Below, in pieces: positions 7,750 to 12,619 of a DNA stretch of 51,780 nucleotides. Source of the DNA: a virus (lineage: Duplodnaviria; Heunggongvirae; Uroviricota; Caudoviricetes); the IMG/VR virus record IMGVR_UViG_2541047930_000003; one strand, given 5' to 3'. The notes under the pieces were generated by a model, which saw only the letters and a list, made by a program, of their open reading frames with translations, was not told the DNA's origin and ran no database searches. A program made the translations under genes and the position numbers. How positions within the stretch are numbered: position 1 is the first letter of the stretch; each line of letters begins with the position of its first letter.

Positions 7750-8169
7750 TTACTCCGGTGGGGGGGTATCTTTAAGCCTGCCCCTCAAATATTTTTCTAC
7801 ATACTCGTCGATTTCTTTTAGCCGGACTTCAAATAGCTCAATCATTCGTTGTTGTTCTGAGCCCGGTAGCTGGTTAAACAACTCAAGAAGTTTTCGTTGG
7901 GATTCATTTAACCACAATTCAGAAGAGTCTTTTTCCCCAAAGAGGAGCTCAGGAGGAGATATGCCCAGTGCCTTTCCCAGGACGACAGCATCATGCACTC
8001 CAACATTTCTGCTGCCCGCCTCATAGTTACCTATACGCGATTGCGTCCATCCGCAGATTTCAGCAAGTTTTCCTTGAGATAAACCAAGCTTCTGCCTGCG
8101 CTCTTTAAGACGCATTGCAATTTTGTCATTGAGCCTACTAGCGGCAATTTTTTCGTTTTCTTTTTCCAT
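7750..8169 (-). CDS. cI-like prophage repressor (139 aa, XRE-type HTH), RacR position
   Basis: LKERRQKLGLSQGKLAEICGWTQSRIGNYEAG HTH motif; divergent from cro-like gene; ATG at 8169. Confidence 0.8.
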   Translation of the reverse strand: MEKENEKIAASRLNDKIAMRLKERRQKLGLSQGKLAEICGWTQSRIGNYEAGSRNVGVHDAVVLGKALGISPPELLFGEKDSSELWLNESQRKLLELFNQLPGSEQQRMIELFEVRLKEIDEYVEKYLRGRLKDTPPPE

Positions 8170-8180
8170 TTCGTCCTTGT

Positions 8181-8245
8181 ATCACGAATCGTGATTTATA
8201 TAAAACACAAAATAGCTTGACCGTAAAACACAAGATGTGTTTAAA
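8181..8245. promoter_or_regulatory. Right operator region (OR) with divergent promoters: palindromes ATCACGAATCGTGAT (~8181-8195) and AACACA-AGA-TGTGTT (~8227-8241); candidate PR -35 TTGACC / -10 TTTAAA
   Basis: Perfect inverted repeats in the 96-bp gap between divergent repressor and cro-like genes; GGAGG RBS precedes the cro ATG. Confidence 0.55.
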
Positions 8246-8265
8246 ATTGTCGTCGGAGGTTTTTA

Positions 8266-8508
8266 ATGAACAAAATTTCAACATATCGAAAACAACTTGG
8301 TCTGTCTCAAAGACAACTCGCTGTTCAGCTAGGGTGGATACAAAGCCGACTAGCAAATTACGAAGCAAACTTTCGTACCCCTGGGCTAGAGGAGTGCAGA
8401 AAAATTGTTTCCACCCTTAATCGGCTTGGTGCTCATTGTGGACTTGACGATGTATTCCCCCCAGACGGTAAGCATAGCGAAAACAGCATAGGAGCGGTTG
8501 ATTCATGA
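8266..8508 (+). CDS. Cro-like HTH regulator (80 aa)
   Basis: MNKISTYRKQLGLSQRQLAVQLGWIQSRLANYEAN HTH; divergent from repressor; differs from my recollection of K-12 YdaS, suggesting a different immunity type. Confidence 0.7.
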   Translation: MNKISTYRKQLGLSQRQLAVQLGWIQSRLANYEANFRTPGLEECRKIVSTLNRLGAHCGLDDVFPPDGKHSENSIGAVDS

Positions 8509-8927
8509 AAATCAGGCATGAGCACATCGAATCAGTGTTGTTAGCCCTGGCAGCCGAAAAAGGGCAGGCGTGGGTTGCTAACGCAATTACTGAAGAATAT
8601 CTGCGCCAGGGGGGCGGCGAATTGCCCCTGGTACCAGGCAAGGACTGGAACAATCAGCAGAATATCTATCACCGTTGGTTGAAAGGTGAAACGAAAGCGC
8701 AAAGGGAAAAAATTCAGAAACTGATCCCTGCGGTTCTGGCAATTCTTCCGCGCGAGCTGCGTCACCGACTCTGCATCTTCGATACCCTGGAACGCCGTGC
8801 ATTACTGGCGGCGCAGGAAGCGTTGAGTACGGCAATTGATGCGCATGATGATGCAGTCCAGGCCGTTTACCGTAAAGCATATTTCAGCGGCGGTGGGTCG
8901 CCCGGCGATTCTGTCGTAGTGCATTGA
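8505..8927 (+). CDS. ydaT: YdaT (140 aa; reported CII-like regulator, historically called a toxin)
   Basis: MKIRHEHIESVLLALAAEKGQAWVANAITEEYLRQGGGELPLVPGKDWNNQQNIYHRWLKGETKAQREKIQKLIP... recognised as Rac YdaT; overlaps cro-like stop. Confidence 0.85.
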   Translation: MKIRHEHIESVLLALAAEKGQAWVANAITEEYLRQGGGELPLVPGKDWNNQQNIYHRWLKGETKAQREKIQKLIPAVLAILPRELRHRLCIFDTLERRALLAAQEALSTAIDAHDDAVQAVYRKAYFSGGGSPGDSVVVH

Positions 8928-9005
8928 TTGAAATTAATCGTGCCGGACTGTTTTGTTCGGTATCAGTTAAATGTAACGCTTACAGCGTTACAAGGTGAAA
9001 ACAAT

Positions 9006-9800
9006 ATGGCTTCAAACTGGATAAAGCTCGAGGTTATTACGCCGGATAAGCCGGAAATATTCAGGCTTGCTGAGATTCTGAATATTGATCCAGATGCCGC
9101 ATTAGGGAAAGTCATTCGCTTCTGGGCATGGGCGGATCAACAAATGATAGACGGTAACGCAGAGTGTAACGCTCGCGGCGTTACAAAAAGTGCAATAGAT
9201 CGCATCACTTTTATGGCTGGTTTTGCTGATGCGTTAATTCAGGTTGGATGGCTGGTCGAAAATAACGGTGGGCTTTCTCTACCTAACTTTGAACGTCATA
9301 ACGGAAAAAGCTCTAAAAAACGGGCGATTACAAACGAGAGGGTTACAAAAATACGCGAACTGAAACGAAAAGGTAACGCTGCCAGCGTTACACAAACGGA
9401 TCAAAAAGCGTTACCAGAGGAAGAGGAAGAGGAAGAGGAAGATATAAATACTGATCTCCCCCTAAATCCCCCTCGCCAAAAACGAGCATCTAAAAAATTC
9501 GAGCCGGAGGCTATTGAGTTGCCCGATTGGTTGCCGGAAACACTCTGGCATGAGTGGGTCCGGTTCAGGCAGGCATTGCGAAAACCGATTCGAACGGAGC
9601 AGGGCGCTAACGGGGCGATACGGGAACTGGAAAAATTCCGCCAGCAGGGTTTTACCCCTGAGCAGGTGATTCGACATAGCATCGCCAATGAATACCAGGG
9701 CTTGTTCGCGCCGAAAGGTGTTCGGCCTGAGACGTTGCTCAGACAGGTTAACACTGTCTCGTTGCCGGACAGTGCGATCCCGCCAGGCTTCAGGGGGTAA
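9006..9800 (+). CDS. Replication initiation protein (lambda O-like / YdaU-like, 264 aa) with internal poly-Glu linker
   Basis: Met27 of ORF 8928..9800 with AGGTGA RBS; precedes the DnaC-like loader; EEEEEEEED linker; palindromic repeats in and near the 5' part. Confidence 0.65.
   Translation: MASNWIKLEVITPDKPEIFRLAEILNIDPDAALGKVIRFWAWADQQMIDGNAECNARGVTKSAIDRITFMAGFADALIQVGWLVENNGGLSLPNFERHNGKSSKKRAITNERVTKIRELKRKGNAASVTQTDQKALPEEEEEEEEDINTDLPLNPPRQKRASKKFEPEAIELPDWLPETLWHEWVRFRQALRKPIRTEQGANGAIRELEKFRQQGFTPEQVIRHSIANEYQGLFAPKGVRPETLLRQVNTVSLPDSAIPPGFRG
9415..9438 (+). repeat. (GAGGAA)4 microsatellite encoding the poly-Glu linker of the replication protein
   Basis: gaggaagaggaagaggaagaggaagat read directly. 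Confidence 0.8.
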
Positions 9801-9806
9801 CGAACC

Positions 9807-10553
9807 ATGAAAAATATTGCGACAGGCGGCGTTCTGGAACGCATCCGCCGACTGACCCCGCCACATGTAACCGCCCCATTCAGAACGGTAGCGGAGTGGC
9901 GCGAGTGGCAACTTGCTGAAGGCCAGAAACGTAGCGAGGAGATCAACCGCCTGAATCGCCAGTTGCGGGTGGAAAAAATTCTGAATCGCTCAGGCATCCA
10001 GCCGTTGCACCGTAAATGCTCGTTTGCGAATTACCAGGTGCAGAACGACGGTCAGCGATACGCGTTGAGCCAGGCGAAATCTATCGCTGATGAACTGATG
10101 ACCGGGTGTACAAATTTTGCGTTCAGCGGAAAACCTGGTACCGGAAAAAACCATCTGGCGGCGGCTATCGGGAATCGCCTGCTGAAAGATGGCCAGACAG
10201 TGATTGTGGTTACCGTGGCTGATGTCATGAGTGCTCTACACGCCAGCTATGACGACGGGCAATCAGGCGAAAAATTTTTGCGGGAACTGTGCCAAGTGGA
10301 TCTGCTGGTTCTTGATGAAATTGGCATTCAGCGCGAGACAAAAAACGAGCAGGTGGTGCTGCACCAGATTGTTGATCGCCGGACAGCGTCGATGCGCAGC
10401 GTGGGGATGCTGACAAACCTGAACTATGAGGCCATGAAAACATTGCTCGGCGAGCGGATTATGGATCGCATGACCATGAACGGCGGGCGATGGGTGAATT
10501 TTAACTGGGAGAGCTGGCGTCCGAATGTCGTCCAGCCAGGAATTGCGAAGTGA
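9807..10553 (+). CDS. DnaC-like helicase loader ATPase (248 aa, YdaV-like)
   Basis: Walker [18 protein letters not shown], Walker B LLVLDEIG; immediately follows the O-like gene. Confidence 0.85.
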
Positions 10554-11932: not shown

Positions 11933-12619
11933 ATGACCCCAATAAAAATATTTATGACTATTGCTGATTTCAAACGGCCTAAATTGGAGCTCCCAAACGG
12001 GGCAAACAAACTACTACTGCACTCTTGCTGTGCTCCATGTTCCGGTGAAGTGATGGAGGCGCTTCAGGCCTCGGGAATCGACTATACCATCTTTTTCTAC
12101 AACCCGAACATTCATCCTCAGAAAGAGTATTTAATTCGTAAGGATGAGAATATTCGCTTTGCTGAACAACACGGCGTGCCATTTATTGATGCTGATTACG
12201 ACACAGACAACTGGTTTGAACGTGCCAAAGGAATGGAATGGGAGCCCGAGAGGGGGATCCGTTGTACCATGTGTTTTGACATGCGTTTTGAGCGGACAGC
12301 GCTGTACGCTGCTGAAAATGGTTTCAGTGTGATCAGCAGTTCACTGGGCATTTCACGCTGGAAAAATATGCAGCAGGTTAACGACTGTGGGCGGCGAGCC
12401 GTCGCGCATTATCCGGGCATGGTGTACTGGGATTATAACTGGCGCAAGCAGGGCGGCTCGTCCCGCATGATTGAAATCAGCAAGCGCGAAAAATTCTATC
12501 AGCAGGAATATTGTGGCTGTGTGTATTCTCTGCGCGATACCAATCTACACCGCAAATCTCAGGGACGCCCTCTTATCAAAATTGGTCAACTCCACTACGG
12601 TAAAGAAGAGAAGGAGTGA
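11933..12619 (+). CDS. DUF208 / QueH-like protein (putative epoxyqueuosine reductase family, Fe-S), 228 aa
   Basis: N-terminal [11 protein letters not shown] motif, which I recall as the DUF208/QueH signature; further Cys (CTMCFD, YCGC); alternative start at 11954. Confidence 0.5.

What the first reader, a model, noticed from the sequence alone, without database searches (positions are those of the whole stretch)
8972..9391. Three TGTAACGC-N3-5-GCGTTACA palindromes in and just upstream of the replication initiator gene
Near-perfect inverted repeats occur at ~8972-8992, ~9165-9185 and ~9373-9391, with extra half-sites nearby, about 200 bp apart. They differ from the repressor operator motif and may be iterons or origin elements bound by the O-like protein, as in lambda where ori lies within O.
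Basis: seen in the sequence. Interest (0 to 1): 0.45.

Follow-up and report, generated by a model that had tools for sequence, protein, structure and literature searches.

The report
Initiator-binding origin sites inside initiator gene
The three palindromes are real and are very probably the DNA sites where this prophage's own replication-initiator protein binds to start copying the phage genome, an arrangement like phage lambda's but in an initiator family whose sites I could not find described.

Summary
Observation confirmed. GTAACGC-N5-GCGTTAC occurs exactly at 8973-8991, 9166-9184 and 9373-9391 and nowhere else in 51.8 kb; extra half-sites lie at 9154 and 9408.

The window is a Rac-like prophage of E. 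coli APEC O1. The sites lie just upstream of, and inside the N-terminal half of, a YdaU-like initiator gene (9006-9800) that is followed by a DnaC-like loader gene.

Selection acts on the DNA, not the peptide:
- Synonymous positions are fixed.
- One site cluster is read in different frames in different homologues.
- One copy is non-coding.

Distant homologues keep the same layout with other half-sites (GTCCGC, GTAGAC, GTGACGT). The layout is one array early in the gene and one at the end of the N-domain, followed directly by a polypurine tract.

Two blind scans of 2.9 million viral contigs found these palindromes almost only at those positions of such genes. The N-domain and its sites are exchanged together as one cassette.

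Best reading: origin sites bound by dimers of the initiator's N-domain, lambda-like in logic. Binding and origin activity are inferred, not shown. It differs from lambda in having split clusters, no AT-rich region and a DnaT-like C-domain. Verdict: new member of a known kind; moderate interest.

The parts
8972..8992 (.). Site 1: TGTAACGC-N5-GCGTTACA. Non-coding, 14 nt before the ATG, directly before the ribosome-binding site AAGGTGA. Found in the Rac-type lineage and some 64-84% relatives, absent in most of the family.
9154..9160 (+). Extra direct half-site GTAACGC, 12 bp before site 2. It corresponds to a 12-nt (4-codon) insertion relative to the TL-2011b-type homologues.
9165..9185 (.). Site 2 (cluster A): TGTAACGC-N5-GCGTTACA. 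It encodes residues 54-60, in the low-confidence loop between helices 29-48 and 61-68.
9372..9392 (.). Site 3 (cluster B): GTAACGC-N5-GCGTTAC at 9373-9391. It encodes residues 123-129, where the predicted disordered inter-domain linker begins.
9408..9414 (-). Terminal half-site GCGTTAC of cluster B, directly abutting CCAGAG and the purine tract. This junction is conserved across the family.
9416..9442 (+). 27-nt polypurine tract AGAGGAAGAGGAAGAGGAAGAGGAAGA, which encodes the poly-Glu linker. A purine tract follows cluster B in nearly all homologues. Candidate unwinding or single-strand loading element, or a charged linker, or a recombination junction.
9443..9455 (.). Short A+T-rich stretch TATAAATACTGAT. 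It is the only A+T-rich sequence near the sites and is too short to be a lambda-type AT-rich region.
9458..9472 (+). C5-TAAAT-C5 element. Related C-run elements occur at the same place in K-12 Rac and in distant homologues. Function unknown.
9006..9800 (+). Initiator gene (264 aa, YdaU-like; PHROG 2509 'replication initiation protein'). The N-domain covers about 9006-9374. The acidic linker follows. The DnaT-like C-domain covers about 9519-9797.
9807..10553 (+). ydaV, the DnaC-like helicase loader and presumed partner of the initiator.
8900..9500 (.). Mosaic cassette: the N-domain coding region plus all GTAACGC sites and the purine tract. It is 30-60% identical to K-12 Rac, while the flanks are 86-98% identical.

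Best explanation
The palindromes are the specific double-stranded DNA binding sites of the N-terminal domain of the initiator that contains them. They very probably form the replication origin of this Rac-like prophage.

Proposed mechanism:
1. Dimers of the N-domain bind the GTAACGC-N5-GCGTTAC dyads. Additional half-sites at an 11-12 bp period extend the arrays at cluster A (9154-9185) and cluster B (9373-9414). Site 1 (8972-8992) is a third, lineage-specific site that may also let the protein dampen its own expression.
2. Bound dimers on the clusters assemble a higher-order complex.
3. The flexible acidic linker lets the DnaT-like C-terminal domains engage the adjacent purine tract and short A+T stretch (9416-9455) as single strands.
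4. The YdaV (DnaC-like) loader then delivers host DnaB.

Shown here: the sites exist, are under DNA-level selection, co-vary with the N-domain and travel with it. Inferred: physical binding, dimer stoichiometry, origin firing, and the role of the purine tract.
For: (1) Statistics: three exact sites against 0.13 expected.

(2) DNA-level selection.
- Inside half-sites Asn is AAC in 44 of 44 cases (113 of 213 outside). In sites read in the window's frame, Val is GTT in 32 of 32 cases (81 of 242 outside).
- The residue before 'NA' varies among G, C and S but is always an NGT codon.
- Cluster B is read as GNAASVT in the window but as KVTLAAL or KVTPTAL, a different frame, in Klebsiella phage ST11-OXA245phi3.2 and TL-2011b.
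- Site 1 is non-coding.

(3) A blind scan of IMG/VR for the exact palindrome returned 120 loci. Of these, 102 encode an N-domain homologue, and 167 of 169 palindromes in them lie at -150..+520 of that gene.

(4) Covariation. De novo k-mer enrichment in distant homologues finds other half-sites in the same layout: GTCCGC in epsilon15, phiPSA1 and RPZH3; GTAGAC in Raharianne; GTGACGT in Dimitile. Each occurs 6-14 times in the gene's first ~500 nt and 0-2 times in the flanks. A second blind scan for GTCCGCA-N5-AGCGGAC returned 120 loci; 83 have a homologue, 74 of those are best matched by the epsilon15/phiPSA1 type, and all 123 palindromes lie at gene nt 66 or 330-368.

(5) Cassette exchange.
- Window versus K-12 Rac: ydaT, the C-domain and ydaV are 86-98% identical, but 8900-9500 is unrelated, and K-12 has no GTAACGC.
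- The Ralstonia phages QkW1 and RPZH3 are 80-100% identical outside nt +27..+390 of the gene, yet use GTAACG and GTCCGC respectively.
- This excludes YdaT, YdaV, YdaW and host factors as the binder.

(6) Protein context: PHROG 2509 'replication initiation protein'; a C-domain homologous to the single-strand-binding, filament-forming DnaT C-domain (PMC4132743, PMC13377028); a DnaC-like gene next door.

(7) The sites sit in coding segments for a low-confidence loop and the disordered linker, where the protein tolerates them.

(8) Precedent: the lambda origin lies in the middle of gene O, and each iteron is an imperfect inverted repeat bound by an O dimer (PMC7466680).
Against: - No experiment shows binding or origin activity for this family, and I found no paper that describes these sites.
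- There is no AT-rich unwinding region; G+C is 0.40-0.45 around 9400-9500.
- There is no DnaA box in 8900-9600.
- The clusters are about 200 bp apart rather than contiguous as in lambda.
- The position of site 1 next to the ribosome-binding site fits an operator as well as an origin site.
- The mapped position of oriJ in K-12 Rac could not be retrieved.
Confidence: 0.7

Rival explanations
1. The sites are autoregulatory operators only. The initiator binds them to repress or roadblock transcription of its own operon, and the origin lies elsewhere.
For: Site 1 sits immediately before the ribosome-binding site. Palindromic sites are typical of operators. No AT-rich region or DnaA box is nearby.
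Against: Site 1 is missing in most of the family, whereas the intragenic clusters are universal. Arrays of 3-7 phased half-sites that abut a conserved purine tract are not expected for a roadblock. No sigma-70-like promoter is found in 8100-9900. A dual role, origin plus autoregulation, is compatible with the main explanation.
Confidence: 0.12
2. The sites are bound by some other factor, such as another phage protein or a host protein, and serve another purpose such as partition, packaging or silencing.
For: No direct evidence identifies the binder. The fold assignment of the N-domain is weak.
Against: The same site class occurs in phages of Escherichia, Klebsiella, Pseudomonas, Xanthomonas and Ralstonia. 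Two Ralstonia phages of one genus use different classes, and the only local difference between them is the N-domain coding segment. The YdaT box is a different sequence, TTGATT-N6-AATCAA (PMC11879457; present at 8498-8515). ydaT, ydaV and ydaW are unchanged between the window and K-12 Rac, yet the sites differ.
Confidence: 0.1
3. The sites act as RNA hairpins in the mRNA, affecting stability, processing or translational control.
For: Each palindrome folds into a stable hairpin: -11 to -16 kcal/mol, z -2.4 to -3.4. Site 1 lies just before the ribosome-binding site.
Against: The arms are conserved in sequence rather than through compensation. Of 48 distinct variant sites, 42 break the pair and only 2 are compensatory. 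Unpaired direct half-sites exist at 9154 and 9408. Dimitile has loop-less 10-bp palindromes, GTGACGTCAC. All copies in a gene switch class together. There is no Rfam match.
Confidence: 0.04
4. The sites are a by-product of a repeated peptide motif (N-A-x-x-V-T), or chance.
For: Sites 2 and 3 are in the same frame in the window and both encode x-N-A-x-x-V-T.
Against: Site 1 is non-coding. Cluster B is read in another frame in homologues. Synonymous positions are fixed: AAC in 44 of 44 cases, GTT in 32 of 32. Shuffles expect 0.13 sites.
Confidence: 0.01

Closest known systems
Phage lambda origin within gene O (and the lambdoid phages 933W and P27)
   Same: - Initiator-binding sites with internal dyad symmetry lie inside the initiator's own gene.
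- Extra sites add extra residues to the protein: a 12-nt, 4-residue unit here, and 13 residues in Stx phages (PMC7466680).
- The sites lie next to the segment between the DNA-binding N-domain and the loader-recruiting C-domain.
- A loader gene lies immediately downstream.
   Different: - The initiator is not homologous to lambda O (no Pfam hit).
- Sites lie in two or three clusters 190-300 bp apart instead of four contiguous 19-bp iterons.
- A polypurine tract replaces the AT-rich region.
- The C-domain is DnaT-like.
- The partner is DnaC-like rather than lambda P.
E. coli K-12 Rac prophage ydaU-ydaV module (oriJ)
   Same: Same gene order (repressor, ydaS, ydaT, ydaU, ydaV, ydaW). The nucleotide identity is 86-98% in ydaT, the ydaU C-domain and ydaV. 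K-12 ydaU also carries its own intragenic repeats, GATGTTCAA(ACA).
   Different: The K-12 YdaU N-domain is DUF1376, unrelated to the window's N-domain. K-12 has no GTAACGC sites. The mapped position of oriJ could not be retrieved. The only primers labelled oriJ that I found map inside ydaV.
E. coli DnaT (replication-restart primosome)
   Same: The C-terminal 93 residues align with the DnaT C-domain (2ru8_A, E 1e-4, down to the shared end ...PDSxIPPGFRG). In both proteins an acidic linker precedes the domain (PMC13377028).
   Different: The DnaT N-domain is an oligomerisation module recruited by PriA and PriB to forks without sequence specificity. Here the N-domain is replaced by a presumed sequence-specific double-strand DNA binder.
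Plasmid Rep/iteron origins (for example pPS10, F, R6K) and the RepA_N initiators
   Different: Plasmid iterons are tandem direct repeats bound by monomers, usually outside the rep gene. Here the units are convergent dyads inside the gene.

Membership tests
Lambda-type origin embedded in the initiator gene | Several copies of a dyad-symmetric initiator site inside the initiator's reading frame | tested here: met
   Sites 2 and 3 plus two half-sites lie inside 9006-9800, and the same holds in all homologues examined.
Lambda-type origin embedded in the initiator gene | Site sequence co-varies with the N-terminal (specificity) domain of the initiator | tested here: met
   At least four half-site classes track N-domain types. 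Cassette swaps are seen in window vs K-12 Rac and in QkW1 vs RPZH3.
Lambda-type origin embedded in the initiator gene | Adjacent A+T-rich unwinding region of about 40 bp | tested here: not met
   G+C is 0.40-0.45 at 9400-9500, and only 13 nt are A+T-rich. A 27-nt polypurine tract stands there instead.
Lambda-type origin embedded in the initiator gene | Initiator homologous to lambda O | tested here: not met
   No Pfam family matches the whole protein at E <= 0.01, and none matches either half at E <= 10. The PHROG hit to 'replication initiation O-like' (phrog_678) covers the C-terminal part only.
Lambda-type origin embedded in the initiator gene | Initiator binds the sites and the fragment supports replication | not testable with these tools
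   Needs EMSA or footprinting and a plasmid replication assay.
Plasmid-type iterons (tandem direct repeats bound by Rep monomers) | Tandem direct repeats of 17-22 bp | tested here: not met
   The units are 7-bp half-sites in convergent dyads with an 11-12 bp period, in separated clusters.
YdaT (CII-like) operator | TTGATT-N6-AATCAA inverted repeat | tested here: not met
   That box is present separately at 8498-8515 (PMC11879457). The palindromes have a different sequence and spacing.
DnaT C-terminal domain | Sequence homology to the DnaT single-strand DNA-binding C-domain | tested here: met
   phmmer vs PDB gives 2ru8_A E 9.7e-5 and 9zbt_D E 2.9e-4, for residues 172-264. PF17948 hits the epsilon15 homologue and many relatives.
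Winged-helix DNA-binding domain (N-domain) | Helix-turn-helix followed by a beta-hairpin wing, with significant structural similarity to known winged-helix proteins | tested here: inconclusive
K-12 YdaU (DUF1376) family | DUF1376 N-terminal domain | tested here: not met
   No Pfam hit. The region is 30-60% identical at nucleotide level to K-12 ydaU in the N-domain, and 86-98% in the C-domain.

The most novel reading that the evidence does not exclude
This is the type case of a large, uncharacterised family of phage initiators found in phages of Gamma- and Betaproteobacteria. The family combines an N-domain absent from Pfam with a DnaT-like C-domain.

In this reading the origin is a split array of dyad half-sites written into the loop- and linker-coding parts of the gene. 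Strand opening does not use an AT-rich region. Instead, the DnaT-like domains filament on a conserved polypurine or polypyrimidine strand next to the last half-site. That would tie replication-restart chemistry to origin firing.

At least four interchangeable specificity cassettes (GTAACGC, GTCCGCA, GTAGAC, GTGACGT) would then define incompatibility or replication-immunity groups among prophages.
Probability: 0.3. Interest if true: 0.6.

Novelty: new member of a known kind. Interest (0 to 1): 0.45.

Why it matters
**Annotation.** About 680 of 5,426 complete E. coli genomes carry this module, mostly annotated 'hypothetical protein'. Relatives occur in phages of Klebsiella, Salmonella, Pseudomonas, Xanthomonas and Ralstonia. 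Knowing the cis sites gives a sequence rule for annotating the origin and for predicting which prophages share replication specificity.

**Experiments.** The result makes specific tests possible: binding assays with the N-domain, mini-replicons, and class-swap experiments.

**Link to DnaT.** A sequence-specific N-domain joined to a DnaT-like C-domain offers a simple system for asking how DnaT-type domains hand DNA to DnaB/DnaC, which is still open for replication restart (PMC13377028).

**Gene finding.** The longest reading frame starts at TTG 8928 and would swallow site 1. The conserved start is ATG 9006.

Tried and rejected
- **Alternative reading frames of the purine tract.** The tract appeared to be read as RGRGR or RKRKRK in some loci, which would have proved DNA-level selection. 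Those loci are frameshifted pseudogenes with ORFs of 112-123 aa, so I dropped the argument. The remaining argument is codon use in GC-rich phages: Arg is AGA in 19 of 19 cases inside the tract and in 8 of 132 outside.
- **Fold searches.** Searches with the full-length and N-domain models gave only weak winged-helix-type hits, so I make no family assignment.
- **DnaA boxes.** None with one mismatch or fewer in 8900-9600.
- **Promoters.** The sigma-70 scan found none in 8100-9900. The one terminator-like hit is site 3 itself.
- **Rfam.** Nothing relevant.
- **Literature.** Searches for YdaU, oriJ, DUF1376 and GTAACGC with iteron found no description of these sites. The oriJ plasmid paper (Potrykus et al. 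2000) is not held.
- **oriJ primers.** The primers labelled oriJ in PMC3945230 map inside K-12 ydaV. They are a nearby amplicon, not a localisation.
- **RefSeq.** The K-12 feature table returned for the ydaU region lists no origin feature.
- **Protein search.** The word-indexed search returned only 71 relatives. Family breadth therefore rests on tblastn, where the 61 records not listed were not inspected, and on IMG/VR (at least 550 relatives).
- **Loci without a homologue.** The 18 and 37 pattern-scan loci that lack a detectable homologue were not examined. Some matches lie at contig ends.

Full report
**Context**

The window matches E. coli APEC O1 (NC_008563.1) at 100% identity. About 676 of 5,426 complete E. 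coli genomes carry most of the 2.4-kb segment tested.

The gene order is that of the Rac prophage immunity and replication region:
- a DicA/RacR-like repressor, 7750-8169 (-)
- a Cro-like ydaS, 8266-8508
- ydaT, 8505-8927
- a 264-residue initiator, 9006-9800
- the DnaC-like ydaV, 9807-10553
- ydaW (DUF1627)

The conserved start of the initiator is ATG 9006 (MASNWIK...), shared by all homologues. The longer ORF that starts at TTG 8928 is not the real gene.

**Observation**

All three palindromes are exact 7-N5-7 dyads, GTAACGC-N5-GCGTTAC, at 8973-8991, 9166-9184 and 9373-9391. They are the only matches in the window even when 2 mismatches are allowed. Shuffles expect 0.13, and 0 of 100 reach 3.

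Eight of the window's 17 GTAACGC heptamers fall within 442 bp. These include unpaired half-sites at 9154 (+) and 9408 (-). Site 1 is intergenic and ends at the ribosome-binding site.

**Selection acts on the DNA, not the peptide**

In the window, sites 2 and 3 are in the same frame and encode x-N-A-x-x-V-T. That could suggest a peptide repeat, but three facts rule it out.

1. Across 19 homologues below 88% identity, Asn inside half-sites is AAC in 44 of 44 cases (113 of 213 outside). Val in sites read in the window's frame is GTT in 32 of 32 cases (81 of 242 outside). The residue before N-A varies among G, C and S but is always an NGT codon.
2. In Klebsiella phage ST11-OXA245phi3.2 and in TL-2011b, the cluster-B dyad is read in a different frame (K-V-T-L-A-A-L). 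The peptide differs while the DNA is the same.
3. Site 1 is not translated.

Variant sites are also not compensatory. Of 48 distinct variants, 42 break the would-be RNA pair and 2 compensate. Unpaired direct half-sites and loop-less palindromes exist. Together these argue against an RNA-hairpin role, even though the hairpins fold stably in silico. Rfam finds nothing.

**The sites belong to the gene family**

The protein is modular.
- Residues 1-137 recur in phages of Escherichia, Klebsiella, Enterobacter, Pseudomonas, Xanthomonas, Ralstonia and Salmonella.
- Residues 148-264 recur in other 'O-like' initiators such as the Gifsy-2 gpO homologue, mEpX1 and phiE125.

In homologues with 34-70% identity, the same dyad sits at gene nt 149-167. 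A convergent array of 3-5 half-sites with an 11-12 bp period sits at nt ~345-415. It ends in GCGTTAC-C(C/T)AGAG followed by a polypurine tract.

Of these, 102 encode an N-domain homologue. In them, 167 of 169 palindromes lie between -150 and +520 of that gene.

**Covariation**

De novo k-mer enrichment, with no motif assumed, found other half-sites in more distant homologues:
- GTCCGC(A) in epsilon15, phiPSA1 and RPZH3
- GTAGAC in Raharianne
- GTGACGT(A/C)AC in Dimitile

Each is present 6-14 times in the first ~500 nt of the gene and 0-2 times in about 2.7 kb of flanks. The layout is the same two clusters, and the purine tract follows.

A second blind scan, for GTCCGCA-N5-AGCGGAC, returned 120 loci. 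Of these, 83 have an N-domain homologue, and 74 of those are best matched by the epsilon15/phiPSA1 type. All 123 palindromes lie at gene nt 66 or 330-368. None of the 102 GTAACGC loci was best matched by that type.

**Cassette exchange**

Window versus K-12 Rac:
- Identity is 92-98% through ydaT.
- It drops to 30-60% between about 8900 and 9500.
- It returns to 86-98% from 9553 on.
- K-12 YdaU has an unrelated DUF1376 N-domain, no GTAACGC, and its own repeat GATGTTCAA(ACA) at the equivalent places.

Two Ralstonia phages of one genus, QkW1 (GTAACG) and RPZH3 (GTCCGC), are 80-100% identical except between gene nt +27 and +390.

So whatever reads the sites changes together with the N-domain and with nothing else nearby. 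This excludes YdaT as the binder. Its box, TTGATT-N6-AATCAA, is present separately at 8498-8515 (PMC11879457). It also excludes YdaV, YdaW and host factors.

**Protein**

The N-domain has no Pfam family. It falls in PHROG 2509, 'replication initiation protein'.

Cluster A encodes the low-confidence loop at residues 49-60. Cluster B and the purine tract encode the disordered linker. The DNA signals are therefore written where the protein is least constrained.

The C-terminal 93 residues are homologous to the DnaT C-domain. That domain binds single-stranded DNA as a filament, and DnaT is an adapter towards DnaB/DnaC (PMC4132743, PMC13377028).

**Mechanism proposed**

1. N-domain dimers occupy the dyads and phased half-sites.
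2. The clusters are brought together.
3. The DnaT-like domains, tethered by the acidic linker, capture single strands at the adjacent purine tract and short A+T stretch (9416-9455).
4. YdaV loads DnaB.

Only the existence, selection, covariation and linkage of the sites are shown. The rest is inference from the lambda paradigm (PMC7466680) and from DnaT biochemistry.

The purine tract is conserved: its median is 21 nt, against 12 nt for the longest run elsewhere in the loci. In GC-rich phages it uses the rare Arg codon AGA in 19 of 19 cases, against 8 of 132 outside the tract. That suggests a DNA-level role. It could equally be a charged linker or a recombination junction between cassettes.

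**Differences from lambda**

- The initiator is not homologous to lambda O.
- There is no AT-rich region and no DnaA box.
- The clusters are separated by 190-300 bp.
- The partner is a DnaC-like protein rather than lambda P.

Site 1 next to the ribosome-binding site may add autoregulation. It is confined to the Rac-type lineage and some relatives.

**Novelty**

The principle, an origin inside the initiator gene with specificity co-evolving, is textbook. I found no description of the sites of this family in the searchable literature. Subscription papers on oriJ could not be read. I rate the finding a new member of a known kind, of moderate interest.

Noticed in passing
window 8498-8515: TTGATTCATGAAAATCAG overlaps the ydaT start codon (8505). 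It matches the published YdaT box (TTGATT-N6-AATCAA) with one mismatch, so the YdaT autoregulatory site seems conserved in this Rac variant.
   Followed up: partly
L092 (E. coli K-12 NC_000913.3) 2263-2578: K-12 Rac ydaU has an unrelated DUF1376 N-domain. It carries its own intragenic repeat GATGTTCAA(ACA), with copies at 2263, 2348, 2472, 2507, 2540 and 2552 and an inverted copy at 2568. This is the same logic with another specificity, and these are candidate oriJ sites.
   Followed up: partly
window 9458-9472; L001 1933-1953; L003 1934-1954; L091 and L088 near gene nt 440-470: A C-run element lies shortly after the purine tract. It is C5-TAAAT-C5 here, C7-TAAAT-C7-G5 in K-12, and CCCCCTAACCCCCCAAGGGGG in Klebsiella and Pseudomonas phages. 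It encodes PPxPP, and whether the DNA or the peptide is conserved is unresolved.
   Followed up: no
window 11933-12619: A QueH (epoxyqueuosine reductase) homologue is encoded inside the prophage, downstream of the replication genes (Pfam E 1.9e-65).
   Followed up: no
L042, L044, L046, L151, L185 (IMG/VR): Several near-identical copies of the initiator gene are frameshifted, with ORFs of 112-123 residues, yet keep the palindromes. They are decaying prophage copies or assembly errors.
   Followed up: partly
window 8201-8242: Direct repeats TAAAACACAA(A/G)AT and the palindrome AAACACAAGATGTGTTT lie in the repressor-ydaS intergenic region. They are probably the immunity operators and are distinct from the GTAACGC sites.
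   Followed up: no
window 8928-9005: The longest ORF of the initiator starts at TTG 8928 and would translate site 1, and K-12 ydaU is likewise annotated as 285 residues. The start conserved in all homologues is ATG 9006, with a ribosome-binding site 7 nt upstream. Many RefSeq records call this gene 'hypothetical protein'.
   Followed up: partly
L092 3241-3395: The PCR primers labelled 'oriJ' in PMC3945230 amplify a 155-bp piece inside ydaV, 0.7 kb downstream of the ydaU linker. They therefore do not say where oriJ is.
   Followed up: yes
pattern-scan loci lacking an N-domain homologue: 18 of L093-L212 (listed) and 37 of L213-L332: A minority of contigs carry the exact palindromes but show no detectable N-domain homologue. 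Some matches lie at contig ends, so the gene may be truncated. Others may be chance or a further initiator type.
   Followed up: no
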